From Candidatus Culexmicrobium thermophilum (GTDB taxonomy: Archaea > Thermoproteota > Methanomethylicia > Culexarchaeales > B10-G16): a DNA stretch of 64,000 nucleotides. Position numbers and translations under genes: made by a program. The notes beneath the pieces are model-generated. The model worked only from the letters and a program-made list of their open reading frames with translations. It was not told where the DNA came from and did not search any database. The stretch's first letter is position 1. Each line of letters opens with the position of its first letter. The stretch spans positions 1,078-65,077 of the forward strand of contig JANZKB010000001.1 in the NCBI GenBank assembly GCA_025061095.1, given 5' to 3'. Positions 3,903 to 63,539 of this stretch are shown here, piece after piece.

Positions 3903-4991
3903 TTATTGGAGAATTCGAGGTATAGAATTTAGGACTTTGCATCCGCTACTTGTCACTAAAACCATCTCCTCTATTCTTACACCGCCGAAACCAGGAATAT
4001 ATATTCCTGGTTCAACAGTCACCACATTACCTTTCTCCAATATATCCCCGCTTTGAGAAGAGAGGCTGGGTGCTTCATGGACGGAGAGTCCTACACCATG
4101 CCCTAAACCATGGTTAAAATATTTTCCATATCCATAGTGCTCAATAATTTTCCTAGCAGCCATATCGATGTTTGAGGCAGGGATACCTTCACATATTTCA
4201 TCTACAGCTATACTTATAGCTTCTACAATACAATCAAATATTTCTTTGAATTTGCCTTGAATCCCGTTTCCCACCACTCCGCTTCTAGTAATGTCAGAGC
4301 AATATCCACAATATTTTGCGCCGAGATCAATTATAACTGTTTCATTTTTATGTAAGGGTTTACTTGTGGGGGTGCCATGAGGATATGCTGATCTAGTACC
4401 TGAGGCAACTAGGGTTTCGAAGGAAAATGCTTCTGCGCCAGCCTTTCTCATCGCATATTCCGCTTCACCTGCAAGTTCAATTTCGGAGATACCTTCATTA
4501 AGATTTTGAAATGCTGCTTCAACCCCTTTCTCAGCAATTCTCAAGGATTTTTGTATAAGATTTATTTCCTCCTCGTCCTTCACCATTCTTAACTTTCTAA
4601 CTAGATTTGAACAGTCAACCAGCTCTTTGGAGATTTTCCCTTTAAAGTTTAAATATGAATTATAGGGTATGGCGGAGAGTTCTAACGCGATTTTCCCTTT
4701 AATTTCAATTCTTCTAATACACTGTAATATTAAATTTGCAAGTTCACCTCTCCGTTTCAGGGAGACTATTTCACCAAGCTTAAAGATGCTCTTAGCCTCC
4801 TCATATTCGAGTTCGGGAACTATGAGAATAGGTGCTGAAGAGGACGATACTATTAGTGCGCGGCCCCTAGGAAAACCTGTCAGATAATATATATTGGTGG
4901 CTTGAAGTATTATTGAAAGGTCTATGTTCTCTTCATCCATAAGCCCCTCTAATTTAGAAAACCTTTTTTTGAAAGAAAGGCTAGTAAGCAT
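3903..4991 (-). CDS. Xaa-Pro dipeptidase / M24B metallopeptidase
   Basis: creatinase N-domain plus M24 C-domain with HGxGHxxGLxVHE motif. Confidence 0.7.
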
Positions 4992-5030: not shown

Positions 5031-6047
5031 ATGGAAGACATTTTAAATATTATTGTTAAAGTTAGAAAAGAACTGGGATATTATTACAAGAATATTCCCA
5101 AGATAATTTCAGTTAGACATGATGAACAGGAGAATAGATTATATATTTTATGTGGTGATCGTCCCGATAAGGCTGTGTTGATGGGGCCTGGTGGAAGGGT
5201 GTTATTTGAGCTGACGAGAAGGTTAAGTGTAGACTTGATAGTTGTTCGAACATACACTGATCTTTTAGTTAGAGAGGAGAGGATGGTTCAAGCTATTCGA
5301 AAAGCTAAAAGAATTGCTGAAAAATGTAAGTCTAAGAAAATTTCAAAATATATTTGGAATAGGCTTATACCGTTGGCGGAGGAGGAGCTAGCCGACTTAT
5401 TGAGGAGGAAAATTCGGAAAAGAAATGTGATCGATGTTAAAACTATCGTGGCATATTCAGGTGGAATTGACAGTTCAGCCACAATCGTATATGCGAAGAA
5501 CTTGGGAGGCGAGGTTATCCCTGTAACTGTTGATCCAGGACCTTTTATAATACCTAGAAGACTCAAAGAAAAGATAATTTCCTTTACTAATAATAACGAT
5601 TTGAAGGCATTTTTCATTAAGCCATCAAATGATTTCAAAGAGATAATCGAGAACTCTATGGATGGGAGATACGCTCCCTGTAAGAGGTGCCATAACATTA
5701 TAGTTGAGACTACGTATAGAGCGGCTGGAAAATTTCAAAGCGAAATAGTGTTTTTCGGCGATCTTTTACCCACAGGAAGCCATTCCATAAAAATTGAGAA
5801 TGAATTATTGCATGTCAATCTTCCAGCATATCTAGCTTTGTCTAAGAGTGACACTATAATAATCTCCAAGTTAAATGGTTATAATGTGGGAAAGCTTAAA
5901 TATGGATGTCCACTCTTCAGAGCTGTTGTAAGGAGGAATAAGCATCTCAAATTAGCAGCATATCAGAGAGTATTGAGAGAGACAAGGGCAGGGGTGCTTG
6001 AACCAAACCAGGCGTTAAAATTGATAAGAAGCATTGAGAAGCTTTAA
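5031..6047 (+). CDS. PP-loop ATP pyrophosphatase family protein with N-terminal KH-like domain
   Basis: SGGIDSS PP-loop; GPGG KH-like motif; CxxC pair; track start 5022 is TTG, ATG at 5031 preferred. Confidence 0.5.
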   Translation: MEDILNIIVKVRKELGYYYKNIPKIISVRHDEQENRLYILCGDRPDKAVLMGPGGRVLFELTRRLSVDLIVVRTYTDLLVREERMVQAIRKAKRIAEKCKSKKISKYIWNRLIPLAEEELADLLRRKIRKRNVIDVKTIVAYSGGIDSSATIVYAKNLGGEVIPVTVDPGPFIIPRRLKEKIISFTNNNDLKAFFIKPSNDFKEIIENSMDGRYAPCKRCHNIIVETTYRAAGKFQSEIVFFGDLLPTGSHSIKIENELLHVNLPAYLALSKSDTIIISKLNGYNVGKLKYGCPLFRAVVRRNKHLKLAAYQRVLRETRAGVLEPNQALKLIRSIEKL

Positions 6048-24444: not shown

Positions 24445-24457
24445 AATTTAATTATGG

Positions 24458-24559
24458 TGCGGGGGGTGGGATTTGAACCCACGCAGGCCTACGCCACGAG
24501 GGATTTCCGGATTTCTCCTCCTGAACCTCGCGCCTTTGACCTGACTCGGCCACCCCCGC
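24458..24559 (-). tRNA. tRNA-Leu (CAG) with ~18-nt intron in anticodon loop
   Basis: minus-strand cloverleaf: acceptor GCGGGGG, anticodon stem CGAGG/CCTCG, loop TTCAGG+intron, long variable arm, T loop TTCAAAT, CCA encoded. Confidence 0.75.
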
Positions 24560-37462: not shown

Positions 37463-37587
37463 GCACCGCCAGCACACCCCTTTCCCAGTGCCTCTCGGAC
37501 ACCAGTACTCGGAAGTGCGGCAGTAGGCTTAACTTCCGGGTTCGGAATGAGACCGGGTGTTTCCCTACTGCCTATGGCCGGCGGTGC
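37463..37587 (-). rRNA. 5S ribosomal RNA (stand-alone)
   Basis: reverse complement reads GCACCGCCGGCCATAGGC...CCGGTCTCATTCCGAACCCGGAAGTTAAGC...GCTGGCGGTGC with pairing termini (helix I). Confidence 0.85.
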
Positions 37588-37680: not shown

Positions 37681-37791
37681 GCCGGGGTCGCCTAGCCTGG
37701 CCCAGGGCGCCGGACTCATAATCAGAAAGGATTGAGGGGTTAAGAAAACGGTGAATTCCGGTTTCCGCGGGTTCGAATCCCGCCCCCGGCA
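37681..37791 (+). tRNA. tRNA-Met (CAT) with ~35-nt intron at/near the anticodon loop
   Basis: acceptor GCCGGGG/CCCCGGC, anticodon stem CCGGA/TCCGG separated by CTCATA+intron, T loop TTCGAAT. Confidence 0.75.
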
Positions 37792-37805
37792 CTACAGGTC
37801 GACTG

Positions 37806-58958: not shown

Positions 58959-59086
58959 TCCAACTGGAATTTAACTAACAAATATTAATAAAATTCTCTA
59001 TGAGAGAATTCATTTCAAATTAAGAGTTCCCAATACAGTTACGACTATGAAGAAAAGCTTATCACTAAAATTTTTAAAATAATTTT

Positions 59087-59250
59087 GGGGCCGAAATTTC
59101 GGGTTGGGACATATGAGAGCAATAAGCCGTAGCTCAGTAAGGGAGAGCGGCGGGCTCCAGAGCTTGCCAGCTTAAAGACCGATAAGGGATGATATAGCTC
59201 TGGAGCGCAGAGAAACCCGTTGGTCGTGGGTTCAAATCCCACCGGCCCCA
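59087..59250 (+). tRNA. tRNA-Trp (CCA) with two introns (one in acceptor stem/position 7-8 region, one in anticodon loop)
   Basis: exons GGGGCCG...TAGCTC AGTAAGGGA GAGC G GCGGG CTCCAG...A CCCGT TGGTC GTGGG TTCAAAT CCCAC CGGCCCC A CCA; 36-nt and ~53-nt intervening sequences. Confidence 0.7.
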
Positions 59251-59338
59251 CCAATTCTGTTCAAATTATAGTTGACGATACAAGTCAAATTGAAAAGAAT
59301 TATTTTTACGTGAAATCTTACATTCATTGGGGAGGTAA

Positions 59339-60034
59339 ATGGGGACAGAGATTGCGAAGAGAAGGGCTGCAGAAGCAGCTTTAAAACATGTTGTAGATGG
59401 CCAAATTATAGGGCTTGGCTCTGGCACCACGATGAAACACTTCATAGATTTATTGAGCAAAAAGATTGAGAGAGAAAAATTAAATGTTGAAGTTGCAGCC
59501 TCTTCATTTCAAGTATATTTAGAAGCAGCTAGGAAGGAATTGAAAGTTTTAGATGCATATAGTTTAAGCGAGGTTGATCTCACAATTGACGGGGCAGATG
59601 AGATAGATAGCTCACTAAATCTCTTAAAGGGAGGAGGAGCAGCTTTAACTAGGGAAAAAATCCTTGCAGAAATGTCTAAAAAATATGTGATCATAGCTGA
59701 TTACACTAAGCTTGTAACTAGAATAGGGGAGAAGCATCCGATTCCAATAGAAATATTGCCATTCGGTTGGAAAGGCACAATAAAAAGGTTAAGTAGATTC
59801 GGCAGGGTGGAAGTGAGAAACTGTAAAGGAGGTAAAGTTGGACCGGTAATAACGGATAACGGAAACCTCATAGTCGATCTTCACCTTGAAAGAGAATATG
59901 TGGAGATCGAAAAAATTGAGAGAAGGATAAAGAATATAGTTGGAGTAGTGGAGGTAGGAATCTTCAGCGGTCTAGCTGATATAGCCTATATTGGATATGA
60001 AGATCATGTTGAAATATTGAATCGTAATCGTTAG
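59339..60034 (+). CDS. rpiA: ribose-5-phosphate isomerase A
   Basis: GLGSGTT, DGADE, KGGGAALTREK motifs. Confidence 0.85.
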   Translation: MGTEIAKRRAAEAALKHVVDGQIIGLGSGTTMKHFIDLLSKKIEREKLNVEVAASSFQVYLEAARKELKVLDAYSLSEVDLTIDGADEIDSSLNLLKGGGAALTREKILAEMSKKYVIIADYTKLVTRIGEKHPIPIEILPFGWKGTIKRLSRFGRVEVRNCKGGKVGPVITDNGNLIVDLHLEREYVEIEKIERRIKNIVGVVEVGIFSGLADIAYIGYEDHVEILNRNR

Positions 60035-60149
60035 CTTAGAAAATTAATGTAACGATATTTGAATGGAGTCTAATATAACTTTAAAACATCGGTTTGAATT
60101 TCGGTTTTCACAACAAATTTTAAGTAGCCTTTGTAGAGTGTTCCGAGTG

Positions 60150-60330
60150 GAAATGGAATCTCTAAATGTGAACAAAAATTGGAAAAGATGAAAAACTTAG
60201 CTTAGAAAATAGCGAAGGAGAAAAAAGAAGAGAAAGATGTCATTGCAATTCTTCTTTTTGGATCAGTGGCTAAGGGTAGCATATACTTTAAAAAGCAGGC
60301 CGCCTTCTCTAATATTCATTGTCTAATTTC
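60150..60330 (+). pseudogene. decayed minimal nucleotidyltransferase (MNT-type) gene fragment
   Basis: translation ...KDVIAILLFGSVAKGS... (LFGSxAxG NTase motif) with in-frame stop upstream and no DxD. Confidence 0.4.
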
Positions 60331-60479
60331 CATTAAGAAAAAGTTCATCTCACTTGTTTCGTGCTTTTTAGTGTGAAATCTTAAGAAATTCTTTGGAGCC
60401 TTGGGCTAGTTTAAATATCCGTTTAAATTTTCGATGTTCTTTAGATTCATAAGAAAATCTAAAGTTAAGAAGATGATCA

Positions 60480-61290
60480 AATTAGAAAGGGTGACAACTT
60501 GATTTATGATAAATACGGGGAATATTATGACCTAGTATACAGCGCGAAAAATCATGATGATGAATATGAAAGTCTCATTAGTTACTTCAAGAGGTTTTGA
60601 AAAACAAGACTAAAAGTATACTCGATGTTGAATGTAGAACTGGTAATCATAGTATACGTTTTGGTTTCTTAAAGTGGCTATAATGTAGTCGGCGTTGACT
60701 TATCCGAAGTTATGATAAATCAAGCTAAAAGAAAAGGTGAGGGGAGAAACTTGCCTGTCAAATTCTTTGTCCAAGACATGGGGAAACTCAGCCTAAAAAG
60801 AAATTTGACGCAGTTTTATGCCTTTTCGGAACATTTGATTACTGTACACGTGACGAAGAGATTCTTAAAACCTTTAAAAAATGGGGAATCATTTGAAAAA
60901 AGACGATTTATTCATCTTTGATTTCTTCCCCCTTCACGCATATGTCGGAAGAGAAAGCCACTGAAGCATTCACGAAGTAGAAAATAAAATATACATCTTG
61001 AGAATAATCGATACTTCCCTTAATCTCGAAACGAATATAGTAGAATTCAAAATAAAATGTAAGGTCATAAAGAACGGAGGTCTCAAGATTCATCGACCGT
61101 TTTGAGGAAGAACATAAAATAAGAATATTCACACCACCGGAAATAGCACATCTATTGAAAGAAACAGGTTTTAAGCCTTTAGGCTTCTTTAATGTTAATT
61201 GGCAAGCCGAAAGACCCTACAGCCTAGACAGCATTACCCTTCAAACCACTAACATAGCATGCGTAGCTAAAAATTTGGGGAAATAGAACA
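60480..61290 (+). pseudogene. decayed class I SAM-dependent methyltransferase gene (multiple frameshifts/stops)
   Basis: pieces across frames: YDKYGEYYDLVY..., ILDVECRTGNHSIRF (motif I GxGxG changed to ECRTG), VVGVDLSEVMINQAKRKGEG, LFIFDFF. Confidence 0.55.
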
Positions 61291-61416
61291 AATACGCGGT
61301 CTCAAGATATATTGGTGCTCCGAAATAGCTTTAGAGGCGGGTTTAAATTTTCTGTTTTTGTAACCACTATACTAAAAATTATAAATCACCCCAATTTTTA
61401 GATATATTGAGGATAG

Positions 61417-62106
61417 TTGATGAGTGCGTTGTTAGGTATTATGAATAAATTATTGAAAGAGGCCTCACTATATTTGGATTTAATCAAGACTAATAAGGGT
61501 GAAATCCGGATTTCTATAGAGCTCTTAGACACCAGAGAAGTTGCAACATTGACGCTAGGAGAGAAAATTGAGGTTATTGATGGTTCTGTAAACCCCGATT
61601 GTAAAATAAGTATGAAAAGGCAAGTTTTGAAAGATATTGTTGAGGGAAGGGCGGATGTCTTTGCGCTGGCTGGTAGAGGTAGAGCAGACGAAGTAAGACC
61701 CATAGAATTTGAAATCTACAACAAAGAACGCTTAAAAGAGATATGGGAAACTGTGAGAGCATTGTTAACTTATTTCTTTATTCCTGGAAGAATCAAAGTT
61801 AGAAATCTTCGTCCAGAATTGGCTGGATATGCCCATGGAGCACATCCTATCCCCATACTTTATTGGAATGGACTGCGATTTGCCTGGTATATAGTAAAAG
61901 CCGGAGAAATCCTCAACAAAGAGAAAACTAAAGATCCATGGCCCCAAATGTTCATAATCCTGAAAGGAAAAGGGAAAGTAATCATACAGGATGAACAATT
62001 TGAAATAAAACCTAACACTGTAATCTACATACCCAGAAACTCCATCCACCAAATAACCGCAAAAGAAGATGTAGAACTATTCTGGATGGCATGGCAAACC
62101 CACTAG
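61417..62106 (+). CDS. SCP2 sterol-carrier-like domain fused to cupin domain
   Basis: N-terminal SCP2-like region ...ADVFALAGRGR; C-terminal cupin region. Confidence 0.45.
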   Translation: MMSALLGIMNKLLKEASLYLDLIKTNKGEIRISIELLDTREVATLTLGEKIEVIDGSVNPDCKISMKRQVLKDIVEGRADVFALAGRGRADEVRPIEFEIYNKERLKEIWETVRALLTYFFIPGRIKVRNLRPELAGYAHGAHPIPILYWNGLRFAWYIVKAGEILNKEKTKDPWPQMFIILKGKGKVIIQDEQFEIKPNTVIYIPRNSIHQITAKEDVELFWMAWQTH

Positions 62107-62198
62107 CAGTAATAGGAACGAAATTTATTCAAAGAATACATTTAAAATGAAATCGCTTTTACAGAAAAAGATCGGTAAGTTGGATAGTTCAATTTTGG

Positions 62199-62271
62199 AG
62201 CCCCGGGCGGGATTCGAACCCGCGACCAACGGCTTACGAGGCCGCCGCTCTAACCGCTGAGCTACCGGGGC
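62199..62271 (-). tRNA. tRNA-Thr (CGT)
   Basis: minus-strand cloverleaf: acceptor GCCCCGG, anticodon loop CTCGTAA, T loop TTCGAAT. Confidence 0.8.
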
Positions 62272-62339
62272 AACATTTATCTAATCAGCTTCTAAATAGA
62301 TTATTGCTCAAAATTTATATTTAATTCCGTTTCCGGTTA

Positions 62340-63539
62340 TTGGAAGATCAAATTATAATGTATGGAGGAGTCAACGTGGGTGGAGCTTCAGTCACAGCCA
62401 AGTATAATATAACAGTTTATTTCGAAGTTGAAGGAATCGTTGAGAAACCTGATGTGATCGGGGCGATCTTCGGGCAAACTGAAGGATTACTTGGAGATGA
62501 GATGGATTTACGTGAACTACAGAGAACGGGGAGGATAGGTAGAATACAGGTTAAATTAGAAACACGTGGAGGGAGAACTACAGGAGAAGTGGTGATACCG
62601 TCAAGTTTGGATAAGGTGGAGACGGCTTTAATGGCAGCTGCCATTGAGACTATAGATAAAGTCGGCCCATGCTCCGCTAGATTTTATTTAAAGGATATAG
62701 AAGATCTTAGAGTTGCAAAGAGGAAGAAGGTTATTGAAAGGGCTAAGGAGATTTTGCGTAAATGGGAGAGGGAAAAGGTTCCTGAAACTAGGGAGATCAT
62801 AGAGAAAATATTAAAGGAAATTAGGATGGCAGAAGTGATAAAGTTTGGCGAGGAAAAATTACCGGCGGGACCGGATGTACCTTACGATGATACTGTGATC
62901 ATAGTGGAGGGAAGAGCCGATGTGATAAATCTGCTTAGACATGGCTATAGAAATGCCATTGCGATAGAGGGAGCATCTATTCCTAAAACGATAATAGAGC
63001 TTACCAGAAAGAAAACGTCGATAGCCTTCGTAGATGGAGATCGTGCAGGGGAATTAATATTGAAGGAACTTCTACAGGTGGCTGATATAGATTATGTTGC
63101 TAGAGCACCGCCAGGTAAAGAAGTGGAGGAATTAACAGCGAAGGAGATAGTTAAATGTCTTTCTAACATGGTTTCCGCTGAGAATTACATTACTCAAATA
63201 GAAAAATCAACATTGGAGAAGCAGAAGTTGAAGAAGACTGCGATCCAAGTAATTCCGGAAAAAGTAAAGGAGAGGATAAGAGAGTACATTGGTACACTTA
63301 AGGCGACAATATATGATGAAAAATGGAACGAGATTAAAGAATTGCCGGTAAGAGATTTAGCTGAAGAACTTCATAAAATAAGAAATGCACATGCTATAAT
63401 ATTTGATGGTGTTATAACTCAGAGAATAGTGGATCTAGCTGGGGATAAAGATGTAAAGATTATTGTTGGAGCGAGGGTGGGAAGTATTACTAAGAGGCCT
63501 GTAAATTTAACACTTTTAACTTTCGATGAAATTCTTTGA
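62340..63539 (+). CDS. dnaG: archaeal DnaG-like primase (TOPRIM)
   Basis: TOPRIM motifs IIVEGRADVINL...DGDRAGE. Confidence 0.75.
   Translation: MEDQIIMYGGVNVGGASVTAKYNITVYFEVEGIVEKPDVIGAIFGQTEGLLGDEMDLRELQRTGRIGRIQVKLETRGGRTTGEVVIPSSLDKVETALMAAAIETIDKVGPCSARFYLKDIEDLRVAKRKKVIERAKEILRKWEREKVPETREIIEKILKEIRMAEVIKFGEEKLPAGPDVPYDDTVIIVEGRADVINLLRHGYRNAIAIEGASIPKTIIELTRKKTSIAFVDGDRAGELILKELLQVADIDYVARAPPGKEVEELTAKEIVKCLSNMVSAENYITQIEKSTLEKQKLKKTAIQVIPEKVKERIREYIGTLKATIYDEKWNEIKELPVRDLAEELHKIRNAHAIIFDGVITQRIVDLAGDKDVKIIVGARVGSITKRPVNLTLLTFDEIL

What the first reader, a model, noticed from the sequence alone, without database searches (positions are those of the whole stretch)
59087..59250. tRNA-Trp(CCA) split by two introns, one inside the acceptor-stem/position-8 region
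The only way to form the 7-bp acceptor stem with the 3' strand CGGCCCC is to use GGGGCCG at 59087-59093, 36 nt upstream of the D arm. The ambiguity of the duplicated GCCG places the splice point between positions 3/4 and 7/8. A second ~53-nt insert sits after CTCCAG in the anticodon loop. Multiple and non-canonical tRNA introns are a known hallmark of Thermoproteales, which supports the taxonomic guess. The anticodon-loop intron contains GGATGATA and CTGGA/CTGA-like elements, faintly like the C/D-box guide found in euryarchaeal pre-tRNA-Trp introns, but the boxes are imperfect.
Basis: partly seen in the sequence, partly recalled or inferred. Interest (0 to 1): 0.5.

Follow-up and report, generated by a model that had tools for sequence, protein, structure and literature searches.

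The report
Two-intron tryptophan tRNA gene, re-mapped

Summary
A tRNA-Trp(CCA) gene lies at 59087-59253 (+), with a 54-nt intron at the canonical 37/38 site (59161-59214) and an interruption in the acceptor stem's 5' strand.

GGG at 59106-59108 joined to GCCG at 59126-59129 gives the same GGGGCCG strand after removal of only 17 nt (59109-59125, position 3/4). It is the only register that forms a canonical bulge-helix-bulge (BHB) motif. In ten distinct Culexarchaeia homologues the 4-bp central helix is always paired and covaries: GUUG/CAAU, GCUG/CAGU, GCCG/CGGC.

On that reading, GGGGCCG at 59087-59093 starts a 19-nt 5' leader that supplies half of the BHB. This heptamer is conserved, and I infer that it temporarily occupies the acceptor 3' strand so the BHB can form.

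The long intron has a conserved K-turn-like motif and a 12-nt antisense to the anticodon loop, placed as in box C/D tRNA-Trp introns. It lacks terminal C and D boxes.

The host is Candidatus Culexmicrobium thermophilum, not Thermoproteales. Position-3/4 introns and boxless long tRNA-Trp introns are both already described, so this is a new member of a known kind. The leader copy is the one possibly new detail.

The parts
59059..59065 (+). TATA-like promoter element TTATCAC, preceded by a purine-rich AAAAGC
   Evidence: AAA(A/G)CTTATCA(C/T) is conserved in the Culexmicrobium homologues and starts 28-30 nt before the distal GGGG. Other tRNA genes of the window have A/T-rich boxes starting 28-33 nt before position +1. 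The transcription start at about 59087 is inferred, not measured.
59087..59093 (+). Here it is read as the first 7 nt of the 5' leader: an exact copy of the acceptor 5' strand and a possible decoy partner for positions 66-72.
   Evidence: Six of its seven columns are invariant, and column 6 is C or U in 10 homologues, while the adjacent linker varies in sequence and length. It pairs 7/7 with the acceptor 3' strand in the predicted minimum-energy fold of every pre-tRNA. No BHB exists for a splice site inside it.
59094..59099 (+). Variable leader linker (AAATTT)
   Evidence: It is 3-7 nt long and unconserved among homologues.
59100..59102 (+). Leader strand of the outer BHB helix h (CGG), pairing with C5-C6-G7 at 59127-59129
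   Evidence: The helix is 1-4 bp long in homologues and 73% of cells are paired. This is the weakest part of the motif.
59103..59106 (+). 5' strand of the central 4-bp BHB helix H (GUUG: three leader bases plus tRNA G1), pairing with 59120-59123
   Evidence: 100% of cells are paired in 10 sequences and two of the four pairs show compensatory changes. RNAalifold recovers this helix unaided.
59106..59108 (+). Exon 1: tRNA positions 1-3 (GGG). The 5' bulge is GG|A at 59107-59109, with the cut after 59108.
   Evidence: Cut position follows from BHB geometry. The columns are invariant.
59109..59125 (+). Intron 1: 17 nt at tRNA position 3/4. It contains a weak h' hairpin (59110-59119), the H 3' strand CAAU (59120-59123) and the first two bases of the 3' bulge AA|G (59124-59126).
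   Evidence: Homologous introns are 14-30 nt. The h' stem covaries (5 pairs with changes on both sides, 93% paired). In the window itself h' has only one contiguous pair, C59110-G59119.
59126..59160 (+). Exon 2: tRNA positions 4-37 (rest of the acceptor 5' strand, D arm, anticodon stem 5' strand, and loop up to G37). The anticodon CCA is at 59157-59159.
   Evidence: Rfam tRNA alignment, ARAGORN, coordinates checked.
59161..59214 (+). Intron 2: 54 nt at the canonical position 37/38. Its BHB has h = the anticodon stem, H = C32-C35 (59155-59158) with AGAG (59209-59212; 3 pairs plus a C-A mismatch), bulges AG|A and AA|A, and h' = GC (59162-63) with GC (59207-08).
   Evidence: H is 4/4 paired in 10 of the 17 homologues tabulated and 3/4 in 7, including the window.
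59175..59195 (+). K-turn-like C'/D'-type motif inside intron 2: AAGA (59175-78), stem CC/GG (59179-80 with 59186-87) around loop GAUAA, then G-AUGAUAU (59188-95). The predicted tandem sheared pairs are G59191-A59178 and A59192-G59177.
   Evidence: The pattern N-GA / CC..GG / (G/A)AU-GA occurs in 17/17 tabulated sequences from Culexarchaeia, the intron-1-less group B and two Bathyarchaeia MAGs. K-turn folding and L7Ae binding are inferred from the sequence rules for K-turns, not tested.
59196..59207 (+). 12-nt antisense element AGCUCUGGAGCG, complementary to G31-G37 plus the first intron bases. G59202 faces C34.
   Evidence: It forms a 9-11 bp helix in all 17 sequences and always starts 3 nt after the GA of the C'-like box. 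The spacing matches the textbook box C/D tRNA-Trp introns of L035, L041, L073 and L080.
59208..59211 (+). CAGA at the place where box D (CUGA) sits in canonical homologues
   Evidence: Not conserved. The same four positions read CTAT, CGGG, GCAG, AGGA, GAGT and others in relatives. It overlaps the H 3' strand of the BHB.
59215..59250 (+). Exon 3: tRNA positions 38-73 (anticodon stem 3' strand, variable loop, T arm, acceptor 3' strand CGGCCCC at 59243-59249, discriminator A73 at 59250)
59251..59253 (+). CCA present in this genome but not conserved
   Evidence: Relatives read TCA at these positions (L126, L132, L137, L143), so CCA is presumably added after transcription.

Best explanation
This is the tRNA-Trp(CCA) gene of Candidatus Culexmicrobium thermophilum. 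It has two introns of the kind removed by the archaeal splicing endonuclease.

Transcription probably starts at or near G59087. That gives a 19-nt 5' leader (59087-59105), followed by G1-G3 (59106-08), a 17-nt intron at position 3/4 (59109-25), positions 4-37 (59126-60), a 54-nt intron at 37/38 (59161-59214), and positions 38-73 (59215-50).

Exon 1 is only three bases long, so the BHB for intron 1 has to be built with the leader. Leader CGG pairs with C5-G7 (helix h). Leader GUU plus G1 pairs with CAAU near the intron's 3' end (helix H). The endonuclease would cut at GG|A and AA|G, a ligase would join the exons, and the leader would then be removed, presumably by RNase P.

Shown here: the gene, the two insertions, the conserved and covarying BHB, and the conservation of the leader heptamer.

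Inferred: the transcription start; leader removal by RNase P; and the role of the leader's GGGGCCG. On the last point I propose that the heptamer pairs with the acceptor 3' strand in the precursor. That would keep C5-G7 and G1 free for the BHB and make splicing precede 5' maturation. After splicing, the leader folds on itself and the rebuilt native strand takes over.

Intron 2 belongs to the long tRNA-Trp intron lineage that descends from, or is related to, box C/D guides. It keeps one K-turn-like motif and the antisense to C34 but has no terminal C/D boxes. Whether it still guides 2'-O-methylation is open.
For: tRNA identity:
- Rfam tRNA match at 39.3 bits covering model positions 4-67 only.
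- ARAGORN calls tRNA-Trp(cca).
- G1-C72 and A73 are read directly from the sequence.

Homologues:
- The gene sits between a nucleotidyltransferase gene and rpiA in conserved synteny in relatives whose RpiA is 56-59% identical.
- A metagenome scan gave ten distinct sequences with the 5' insertion and a sister set without it.

Splice register:
- Among all registers that yield GGGGCCG, only the proximal GGG|A...AA|G has H 4/4, and it does so in 10/10 sequences.

Covariation of the BHB:
- 90.4% of cells are paired, against 32-53% when partners are slid by 1-3 columns.
- 0 of 500 shuffles reach the observed covariation score.
- H is 100% paired with two compensatory pairs; h' has five compensatory pairs.
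- RNAalifold finds H, h' and the 5'-side 3-nt bulge without guidance. It does not place h, so the 3' bulge is not delimited in its output.

Leader heptamer:
- It is conserved next to a variable linker.
- It pairs 7/7 with positions 66-72 in the minimum-energy fold of all precursors.
- Forcing the BHB costs a mean 6.7 kcal/mol with the heptamer and 10.4 without it at 37 C (5.9 against 8.0 at 75 C). The cost is lower with the heptamer in 8 of 9 sequences at 37 C and 9 of 9 at 75 C.
- After splicing, the native register plus a leader hairpin is better than the distal register by up to 3.9 kcal/mol in 8 of 9 sequences at 37 C (one is 1.5 kcal/mol worse), and equal or better by up to 2.5 in all 9 at 75 C.

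Intron 2:
- BHB, K-turn-like motif and antisense are conserved in 17/17 sequences.

Literature:
- Position-3/4 introns exist in Thermoproteales (PMC4090602).
- tRNAscan-SE 2.0 adds 60-nt flanks in order to find end-proximal introns (PMC8450103).
Against: - No transcript data were available, so the transcription start, both cut sites and the mature 5' end are all predictions.
- The promoter spacing (28 nt from TTATCAC to the distal G) equals the spacing to position +1 at other tRNA genes of the window. That is what one would expect if the distal heptamer were the mature 5' end.
- The nearest-neighbour model never makes the full BHB the dominant fold. It still costs 4-11 kcal/mol to form. Without cloverleaf constraints, the model prefers the distal heptamer as acceptor partner even after splicing.
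- Helix h is only 1-4 bp long, and in the window h' has just one contiguous pair.
- RNase P was not looked for, and could not be, in this genome.
- The heptamer-to-acceptor pairing cannot be tested by covariation because the acceptor 3' strand is invariant in all ten sequences.
Confidence: 0.7

Rival explanations
1. The distal GGGGCCG (59087-59093) is the true 5' exon, transcribed without a leader, and a single 36-nt intron is removed somewhere between positions 3/4 and 7/8.
For: - The heptamer is an exact, conserved complement of the acceptor 3' strand.
- It sits 28 nt after a TATA-like box, which is the usual distance to +1 at other tRNA genes here.
- Folding predicts that it pairs 7/7 with positions 66-72.
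- In L132 and L147 the four bases ending at the distal G1 happen to be able to pair with the intron's H 3' strand.
Against: - The known endonuclease cuts two bulges set symmetrically across a 4-bp helix.
- None of the five distal registers gives such a motif consistently: H is 0-3 of 4 pairs in most sequences, and h is 0 in most.
- A 5' site inside the first 3-7 transcribed bases leaves nothing upstream to build H and h.
- This model gives no reason for the covarying BHB whose 5' bulge lies in the middle of the supposed intron.
- A second round of splicing to remove the remaining 19 nt finds no BHB either (checked by hand on the sequence).
Confidence: 0.15
2. Splicing works as in the best explanation, but the distal heptamer has no decoy role. 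It would be a relic of the duplication or insertion that created the intron. Alternatively it is kept for another reason, such as the initiation sequence or a leader hairpin with GGYY that helps RNase P.
For: - The leader hairpin (distal G3-Y6 with GGYY) is 100% pairable in ten sequences and appears in the native-register folds.
- Thermodynamic support for the decoy is modest at 2-4 kcal/mol.
- No covariation can be obtained for the heptamer-to-acceptor pairing.
Against: - A neutral relic should have decayed the way the adjacent linker has. The linker differs completely between genera, whereas six of the seven heptamer positions are invariant.
- The leader hairpin accounts for only four of the seven conserved positions.
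Confidence: 0.25
3. The locus is a decaying pseudogene, or the 5' insertion is an assembly artefact, and the working tRNA-Trp lies elsewhere.
For: - Default tRNA finders miss or truncate the gene.
- Only one 64-kb window of the genome was available to examine.
Against: - The tRNA region is identical over 567 bases in five of the six independent metagenome contigs retrieved; the sixth ends inside the gene.
- The architecture is kept in conserved synteny across two genera, with compensatory changes in the splicing motif.
- The spliced product is a perfect cloverleaf.
Confidence: 0.03

Closest known systems
Non-canonical BHB introns of archaeal tRNAs, in particular the position-3/4 introns reported for Thermoproteales (Sugahara et al. 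2008, as cited in PMC4090602), and multi-intron tRNAs
   Same: A short intron is bounded by a helix-bulge-helix-bulge-helix motif. It lies three bases into the acceptor stem and occurs together with a canonical 37/38 intron in the same gene. Because it is so close to the 5' end, flanking (leader) sequence is needed for the motif. tRNAscan-SE 2.0 adds 60-nt flanks for exactly this reason (PMC8450103).
   Different: The host is Culexarchaeia, not Thermoproteales. The leader also carries a conserved full copy of the acceptor 5' strand. I did not find this described in the papers I could read, and I could not check it in the Thermoproteales examples because the primary paper is not held and no such gene was among the loci I fetched.
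[quoted passage not shown]
   Same: - The intron is long (54 nt here) and lies at 37/38 of tRNA-Trp.
- A 12-nt antisense to the anticodon loop follows a C'-type box and places C34 opposite the fifth base upstream of the box D position.
- The antisense helix and the BHB compete for the same exon bases.
- Textbook versions with GUGAUGA...CUGA...GUGAUGA...CUGA were recovered for direct comparison (L035, L041, L073, L080).
   Different: - There is no box C at the intron's 5' end and no conserved box D (CAGA here, unrelated tetramers in relatives).
- There is no second guide against position 39.
- No Rfam C/D family matches, even at E up to 10.
The 65-nt tRNA-Trp intron of Sulfolobus solfataricus (Danan et al. 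2012, PMC3326292)
   Same: It is from the same broad phylum-level group. It is a long tRNA-Trp intron without consensus C and D boxes, but with stretches complementary to the tRNA around the anticodon. It is a stable circle in vivo, which suggests a retained function.
   Different: That intron is reported to have complementarity to both positions 34 and 39; here only the position-34 antisense is present. The conserved K-turn-like motif noted here was not compared with the Sulfolobus sequence, which I did not have.
Leader-trailer helices of split (trans-spliced) and permuted tRNAs (Nanoarchaeum, Caldivirga, Thermofilum; PMC4090602, PMC3218864)
   Same: Sequence outside the mature tRNA is recruited to build the BHB that the endonuclease needs.
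   Different: Here everything is on one transcript in the normal order. The extra sequence is a 5' leader that would remain attached after splicing and must be removed separately.

Membership tests
tRNA (Rfam RF00005), isotype Trp | Cloverleaf with 7-bp acceptor stem, D, anticodon and T arms | tested here: met
   The Rfam match covers model positions 4-67 on the unspliced gene. After removing 59109-25 and 59161-59214, ARAGORN calls a 77-nt tRNA with a perfect 7-bp acceptor stem.
tRNA (Rfam RF00005), isotype Trp | Anticodon CCA, and the archaeal/eukaryal Trp identity set G1-C72 with A73 | tested here: met
   CCA is at 59157-59159. G1-C72 and A73 are read from the sequence. That these bases are the identity elements is from my own knowledge.
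Archaeal endonuclease-spliced intron (hBHBh' motif), intron 1 at position 3/4 | 4-bp central helix flanked by two 3-nt bulges on opposite strands, with cuts after the second base of each bulge | tested here: met
   GUUG/CAAU with bulges GG|A and AA|G. 10/10 homologues have 4/4 pairs with compensatory changes.
Archaeal endonuclease-spliced intron (hBHBh' motif), intron 1 at position 3/4 | Outer helices h and h' of at least about 2 bp | tested here: inconclusive
   In the window h is 3 bp (1-4 bp in relatives; 73% of cells paired). h' has one contiguous pair in the window but 2-9 bp with covariation in relatives. This would count as a relaxed motif in some members.
Archaeal endonuclease-spliced intron (hBHBh' motif), intron 2 at position 37/38 | BHB formed by the anticodon stem, positions 32-35 with the intron's 3' end, and two 3-nt bulges | tested here: met
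   In the window h is 5 bp, H is 3 pairs plus a C-A mismatch, and h' is 2 bp. H is 4/4 in 10 of the 17 homologues tabulated.
Archaeal endonuclease-spliced intron | Actual cleavage and ligation at the predicted sites | not testable with these tools
   No transcriptome data or enzyme assay was available.
Box C/D guide sRNA (as in euryarchaeal pre-tRNA-Trp introns) | Terminal box C (RUGAUGA) and box D (CUGA) forming a K-turn | tested here: not met
   There is no UGAUGA near the intron's 5' end. The box D position holds CAGA here and unrelated tetramers in relatives. No Rfam C/D family matches at E up to 10.
Box C/D guide sRNA (as in euryarchaeal pre-tRNA-Trp introns) | Internal C'/D' motif | tested here: inconclusive
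   xxGA / short stem-loop / (G/A)AUGA is conserved in 17/17 sequences, which fits the G-A/A-G core of a K-turn. Boxes C' (AUGAUAU) and D' (AAGA) depart from the consensus. Protein binding was not tested.
Box C/D guide sRNA (as in euryarchaeal pre-tRNA-Trp introns) | 10-12 nt guide ending at box D or D', with the target opposite the fifth base upstream | tested here: inconclusive
   The 12-nt antisense places C34 at the fifth base upstream of the slot where box D lies in canonical homologues. Without a box D the ruler is undefined.
Box C/D guide sRNA (as in euryarchaeal pre-tRNA-Trp introns) | Second guide against position 39 | tested here: not met
   No complementarity to positions 38-43 lies upstream of the D'-like box in Culexarchaeia. 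It is partly kept in the Bathyarchaeia homologues L055 and L120 (ACGGGUCUG).
   RpiA, the THUMP methyltransferase, the radical SAM protein and DnaG of the window are identical to proteins named Candidatus Culexmicrobium thermophilum / archaeon GB-1867-097. Culexarchaeia is placed as sister to Methanomethylicia (PMC9723716).
Split or permuted tRNA gene | Exons on separate transcripts or in permuted order | tested here: not met
   All exons are collinear within 165 nt, downstream of one promoter-like element.

The most novel reading that the evidence does not exclude
The 5' leader of this pre-tRNA carries a conserved exact copy of the acceptor 5' strand that works as a built-in conformational switch. 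In the precursor it would occupy the acceptor 3' strand, so that the interrupted native strand is free to form the leader-dependent BHB and RNase P has no substrate. After the intron is removed, the leader would snap into its own hairpin, the rebuilt native strand would take over, and RNase P would remove the leader. That would be an RNA-encoded way of forcing splicing to precede 5'-end maturation. It would also explain how introns can survive only three bases from a tRNA's 5' end.
Probability: 0.3. Interest if true: 0.6.

Novelty: new member of a known kind. Interest (0 to 1): 0.38.

Why it matters
For annotation: the gene is missed or truncated by default tRNA searches. Culexarchaeia MAGs could therefore look as if they lack tRNA-Trp. 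The correct exon map (59106-08, 59126-60, 59215-50) is needed to annotate it properly.

For biology, three points follow.
- It extends position-3/4 introns beyond Thermoproteales to a class-wide, conserved case. Because the splicing motif covaries, this case is a clean test substrate.
- It shows concretely that an intron so close to the 5' end depends on the leader. That implies splicing must come before 5' maturation, and the conserved leader copy of the acceptor strand suggests how the order might be enforced.
- It adds a well-sampled lineage in which the tRNA-Trp intron has lost the terminal C/D boxes but keeps one K-turn-like motif and the C34 antisense. This bears on whether such boxless introns, like the one in Sulfolobus, still guide methylation.

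Tried and rejected
- **Default ARAGORN** found no tRNA at this locus. The intron option was needed.
It did not return the window's own species. It did yield canonical C/D tRNA-Trp introns and the Bathyarchaeia homologues.
- **A permissive single-sequence BHB scan** produces dozens of chance motifs per locus. Single-sequence BHB matches are therefore worthless on their own, and I relied on register-restricted comparison and covariation instead.
- **Distal splice sites** in all five registers were rejected for lack of H and h.
- **Other processing routes**, checked by hand on the sequence and found not to fit BHB geometry:
  - a nested second intron removing the residual 19 nt after the first splicing;
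  - a BHB using the leader hairpin as its central helix;
  - a leader-internal BHB that would let the endonuclease make the 5' end.
- **A K-turn in intron 1** (GGGA-hairpin-CAGUAA) was rejected because there is no GA on the second strand.
- **Complementarity of the leader's CGGGUU to positions 37-42** (a possible guide for position 39) was considered. It is not conserved (CGGGCU, UGGGCU in relatives) and no box follows it, so I dropped it.
- **Minimum-energy and pair-probability folding** did not predict the BHB as the dominant structure. Only the constrained-cost comparison was informative.
- **A search for other tRNAs cut at model position 4** in 16 Culexarchaeia and Thermoproteales loci found only the tRNA-Trp homologues. 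I could not test whether other 3/4-intron genes carry leader copies.
- **Literature access:** the primary C/D paper (PMC92551) is not held, and the Sugahara 2008 paper could not be read.
Full report
**The observation**

GGGGCCG lies at 59087-59093, and 36 nt later GCCG-TAGCTCAG begins the body of a tRNA. Default ARAGORN misses the gene. The Rfam tRNA model matches 59126-59246 at 39.3 bits, but only over model positions 4-67, so the outer three acceptor pairs are absent from the contiguous sequence. With introns allowed, ARAGORN calls tRNA-Trp(cca) with a 54-nt anticodon-loop intron and a broken top of the acceptor stem. Joining GGGGCCG to T59130 restores a perfect 7-bp stem. The Rfam tmRNA model, which has a tRNA-like end, also pairs 59087-93 with 59243-49.

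**Organism**

Four proteins encoded in the window (RpiA, a THUMP methyltransferase, a radical SAM protein and DnaG) are identical in sequence to proteins that NCBI names Candidatus Culexmicrobium thermophilum / archaeon GB-1867-097. The Culexarchaeia paper describes these as Guaymas Basin MAGs of a class that is sister to Methanomethylicia, with about 38-40% G+C (PMC9723716).

**Relatives**

Six metagenome contigs carry the identical RpiA. In five of them the tRNA region is identical to the window over 567 bases; the sixth ends inside the gene. RpiA homologues at 56-59% identity lie in the same gene order: L10e, THUMP, radical SAM, nucleotidyltransferase, gap, RpiA, DnaG. The gap holds the same tRNA-Trp architecture with diverged intron sequence.

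One metagenome scan with the D-arm and anticodon-arm pattern returned 18 loci. Together with the synteny loci, these fall into two sets.
- Group A has ten distinct sequences with the 5' insertion. It includes L140, from the 1,082,165-bp scaffold, and L150, from the 843-kb scaffold. Both scaffolds match sizes reported for Culexarchaeia MAGs (PMC9723716), so group A spans both described genera.
- Group B has the contiguous acceptor strand GGGGGCG and no 5' insertion, but an anticodon-loop intron of the same family.

**Which GGG is exon 1**

It is not. GGG at 59106-59108, immediately before AC, joined to GCCG at 59126-59129, gives the same GGGGCCG.

I listed every pair of cut sites that yields a strand complementary to positions 66-72. 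For each I scored the geometry the archaeal endonuclease needs: a 4-bp helix H between the four bases ending 2 nt before the 5' cut and the four bases ending 2 nt before the 3' cut, plus outer helices h and h'. In all ten group A sequences only the proximal register has H at 4/4, with h of 1-4 bp and h' of 1-9 bp. The five distal registers mostly have 0-3 H pairs, and h is 0 in most.

In window coordinates the motif is:
- h: CGG 59100-02 with CCG 59127-29
- H: GUUG 59103-06 with CAAU 59120-23
- 5' bulge: GG|A 59107-09
- 3' bulge: AA|G 59124-26
- h': a weak hairpin within 59110-19 (coordinates checked)

**Covariation**

On a MAFFT alignment of the ten sequences (A1) the named BHB structure has 90.4% of cells paired, against 32-53% when the 3' partners are slid by 1-3 columns. 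None of 500 shuffles reaches the observed covariation score or the observed number of double changes. H is paired in 100% of cells, and its two inner pairs switch together: U-A/U-A, C-G/U-A and C-G/C-G. h' has five pairs with changes on both sides. RNAalifold, given only the alignment, returns H, h' and the 5'-side 3-nt bulge. It does not return h. A permissive scan shows that single-sequence BHB-like matches are common by chance, so the argument rests on register and covariation, not on the window alone.

**Consequence for the exon map**

Both cuts are fixed by the symmetry of the motif. The 5' cut therefore falls after G59108 and the 3' cut before G59126. Intron 1 is 59109-59125, 17 nt at position 3/4 (14-30 nt in relatives).

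The stretch 59087-59105 would then stay attached to exon 1 as a 5' leader, and this leader supplies three of the four H bases and all of the h strand. A 3/4 intron has only three exon bases upstream, so it cannot form the motif in any other way. tRNAscan-SE 2.0 adds 60-nt flanks to find such end-proximal introns (PMC8450103). Position-3/4 introns have been reported in Thermoproteales (PMC4090602, citing Sugahara 2008).

**The distal heptamer**

It is not noise. Six of its seven columns are invariant and the seventh is C or U, while the 3-7 nt linker next to it differs completely between lineages.

A TATA-like element (TTATCAC, with a purine-rich stretch before it) starts 28-30 nt upstream of the distal G in the Culexmicrobium sequences. 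Other tRNA genes of the window have A/T-rich boxes starting 28-33 nt before position +1. The primary transcript therefore probably begins at or next to G59087. This is an inference from spacing.

That fact cuts both ways. The BHB decides between the two. A 5' cut inside the first seven transcribed bases has nothing upstream to form H and h. No second motif is available to remove the 19 nt that would remain after the first splicing (checked by hand).

**A proposed role for the heptamer (inferred)**

In the precursor the acceptor 3' strand could pair with the interrupted native strand (3 + 4 bp). That would consume G1 and C5-G7, which are the bases the BHB needs. A contiguous 7-bp partner in the leader would prevent this.

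The modelling is consistent with the idea but weak:
- The heptamer pairs 7/7 with positions 66-72 in the minimum-energy fold of all ten precursors, at both 37 and 70 C.
- Forcing the BHB costs a mean 6.7 kcal/mol with the heptamer and 10.4 without it at 37 C (5.9 against 8.0 at 75 C). The cost is lower with the heptamer in 8 of 9 sequences at 37 C and 9 of 9 at 75 C.
- After splicing, with the cloverleaf arms enforced, the native register plus a leader hairpin (distal G3-Y6 with GGYY, 100% pairable) is better than the distal register by up to 3.9 kcal/mol in 8 of 9 sequences at 37 C (one is 1.5 kcal/mol worse), and equal or better by up to 2.5 in all 9 at 75 C.

Against the idea:
- The BHB is never the predicted dominant fold.
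- Unconstrained folding still prefers the distal register after splicing, though it does so with a misfolded tRNA body.
- The acceptor 3' strand does not vary, so covariation cannot test the pairing.

I rate the exon map at about 0.7-0.75 and the decoy role at about 0.3.

**The anticodon-loop intron**

By BHB geometry it is 59161-59214 (54 nt), which leaves the loop CUCCAGA. ARAGORN's alternative boundaries give CUCCAAA, but the bulges AG|A and AA|A place the cuts after G37 and before A38. In the window H is C32-C35 with AGAG, that is, three pairs plus a C-A mismatch. H is 4/4 in 10 of the 17 homologues tabulated.

Inside the intron, all 17 sequences examined (Culexarchaeia, group B and two Bathyarchaeia MAGs) share the following, in this order:
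- N-GA, a short CC..GG stem-loop, and (G/A)AU-GA
- exactly three further bases
- a 12-nt stretch complementary to G31-G37 and the first intron bases

The first element has the sequence signature of a K-turn (tandem G-A/A-G next to a helix with a 3-nt bulge) and corresponds to a C'/D' pair. The second element sits exactly where the D guide sits in the textbook box C/D tRNA-Trp introns that the genome scan also returned (L035, L041, L073, L080: GUGAUGA-12 nt-CUGA-AGU-GUGAUGA-12 nt-CUGA). In both cases C34 lies opposite the fifth base upstream of the box D slot.

However, the slot holds CAGA here and unrelated tetramers in relatives. There is no box C, there is no guide against position 39, and no Rfam C/D family matches at E up to 10. 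This is the situation described for Sulfolobus solfataricus, whose stable circular 65-nt tRNA-Trp intron lacks consensus boxes but keeps antisense stretches (PMC3326292). I would call it a half-degenerate relative whose activity is unknown.

**Verdict**

This is a genuine two-intron tRNA-Trp gene. Both intron types are known kinds, so it is a new member of a known kind, and it is useful for annotating Culexarchaeia. The conserved leader copy of the acceptor strand is the one feature I could not find described. It is worth an experiment, but it currently rests on conservation and modest thermodynamic modelling.

Noticed in passing
window 37681-37792 (+) and 24455-24559 (-): Two further intron-containing tRNA genes that default ARAGORN missed. 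One is tRNA-Met(CAT) with a 35-nt intron, lying divergently next to the 5S rRNA gene (37464-37585, minus strand). The other is tRNA-Leu(CAG) with a 17-nt intron. ARAGORN places both introns a few bases 3' of the usual site. I did not check their exact BHB positions, or whether the Met intron carries a guide.
   Followed up: partly
L035, L041, L073, L080 (MAGs titled 'uncultured archaeon'), tRNA-Trp loci: Textbook box C/D tRNA-Trp introns of 61-62 nt (GUGAUGA-guide-CUGA-AGU-GUGAUGA-guide-CUGA). Their guides place C34 and position 39 at the fifth base upstream of D and D'. I used them as the reference for spacing. Their lineage is not named in the records.
   Followed up: partly
L055 (match at 4805) and L120, Bathyarchaeia MAGs: Their tRNA-Trp introns look like an intermediate state. 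The position-39 guide is still recognisable (ACGGGUCUG) and is followed by a degenerate D' (CUUA-GA). A 5-bp stem closes the K-turn, the C34 antisense is kept, and there are no terminal C/D boxes. ARAGORN miscalls these genes as tRNA-Arg(ccg).
   Followed up: partly
L112, Candidatus Geothermarchaeota MAG, about 230 nt upstream of the pattern match at 5104: An apparent tRNA-Trp gene with at least two insertions, one in the D/anticodon-stem region and one after CTCCAG that contains GGGGATGA. ARAGORN miscalls it as tRNA-Tyr.
   Followed up: no
L042 (Bathyarchaeota), and L050, L081, L113, L018, L118: tRNA-Pro-like genes with several non-canonical insertions that ARAGORN cannot call. In L042, GGGGCCG is separated from TCGTCTAGC by about 25 nt, which looks like an insertion at position 7/8.
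   Followed up: no
L029 (second match, minus strand) and L107, Desulfurococcaceae MAGs: Only a tRNA 3' half (T arm plus acceptor 3' strand) is recognisable, preceded by TTATATC...GGAGC repeats. These may be split tRNA halves.
   Followed up: no
window 59251-59253, and the same positions in L126, L132, L137, L143: The CCA after A73 is present in the window but reads TCA in several relatives, so the genomic CCA is not a conserved feature of this gene.
   Followed up: yes
window 59045-59254 (-) and 59266-59460 (-): Mechanical ORFs of 69 and 64 aa that overlap the tRNA gene and the rpiA start on the opposite strand. They are almost certainly not genes, and no gene is called there in the homologous contigs.
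   Followed up: partly
window 60035-62340, compared with L126 and L128: Between rpiA and dnaG the window has about 2.3 kb extra, containing small ORFs and a cupin-domain gene. The relatives L126-L130 lack this stretch; there dnaG follows rpiA within about 220-330 nt. It is an insertion or deletion difference and I did not examine it.
   Followed up: no
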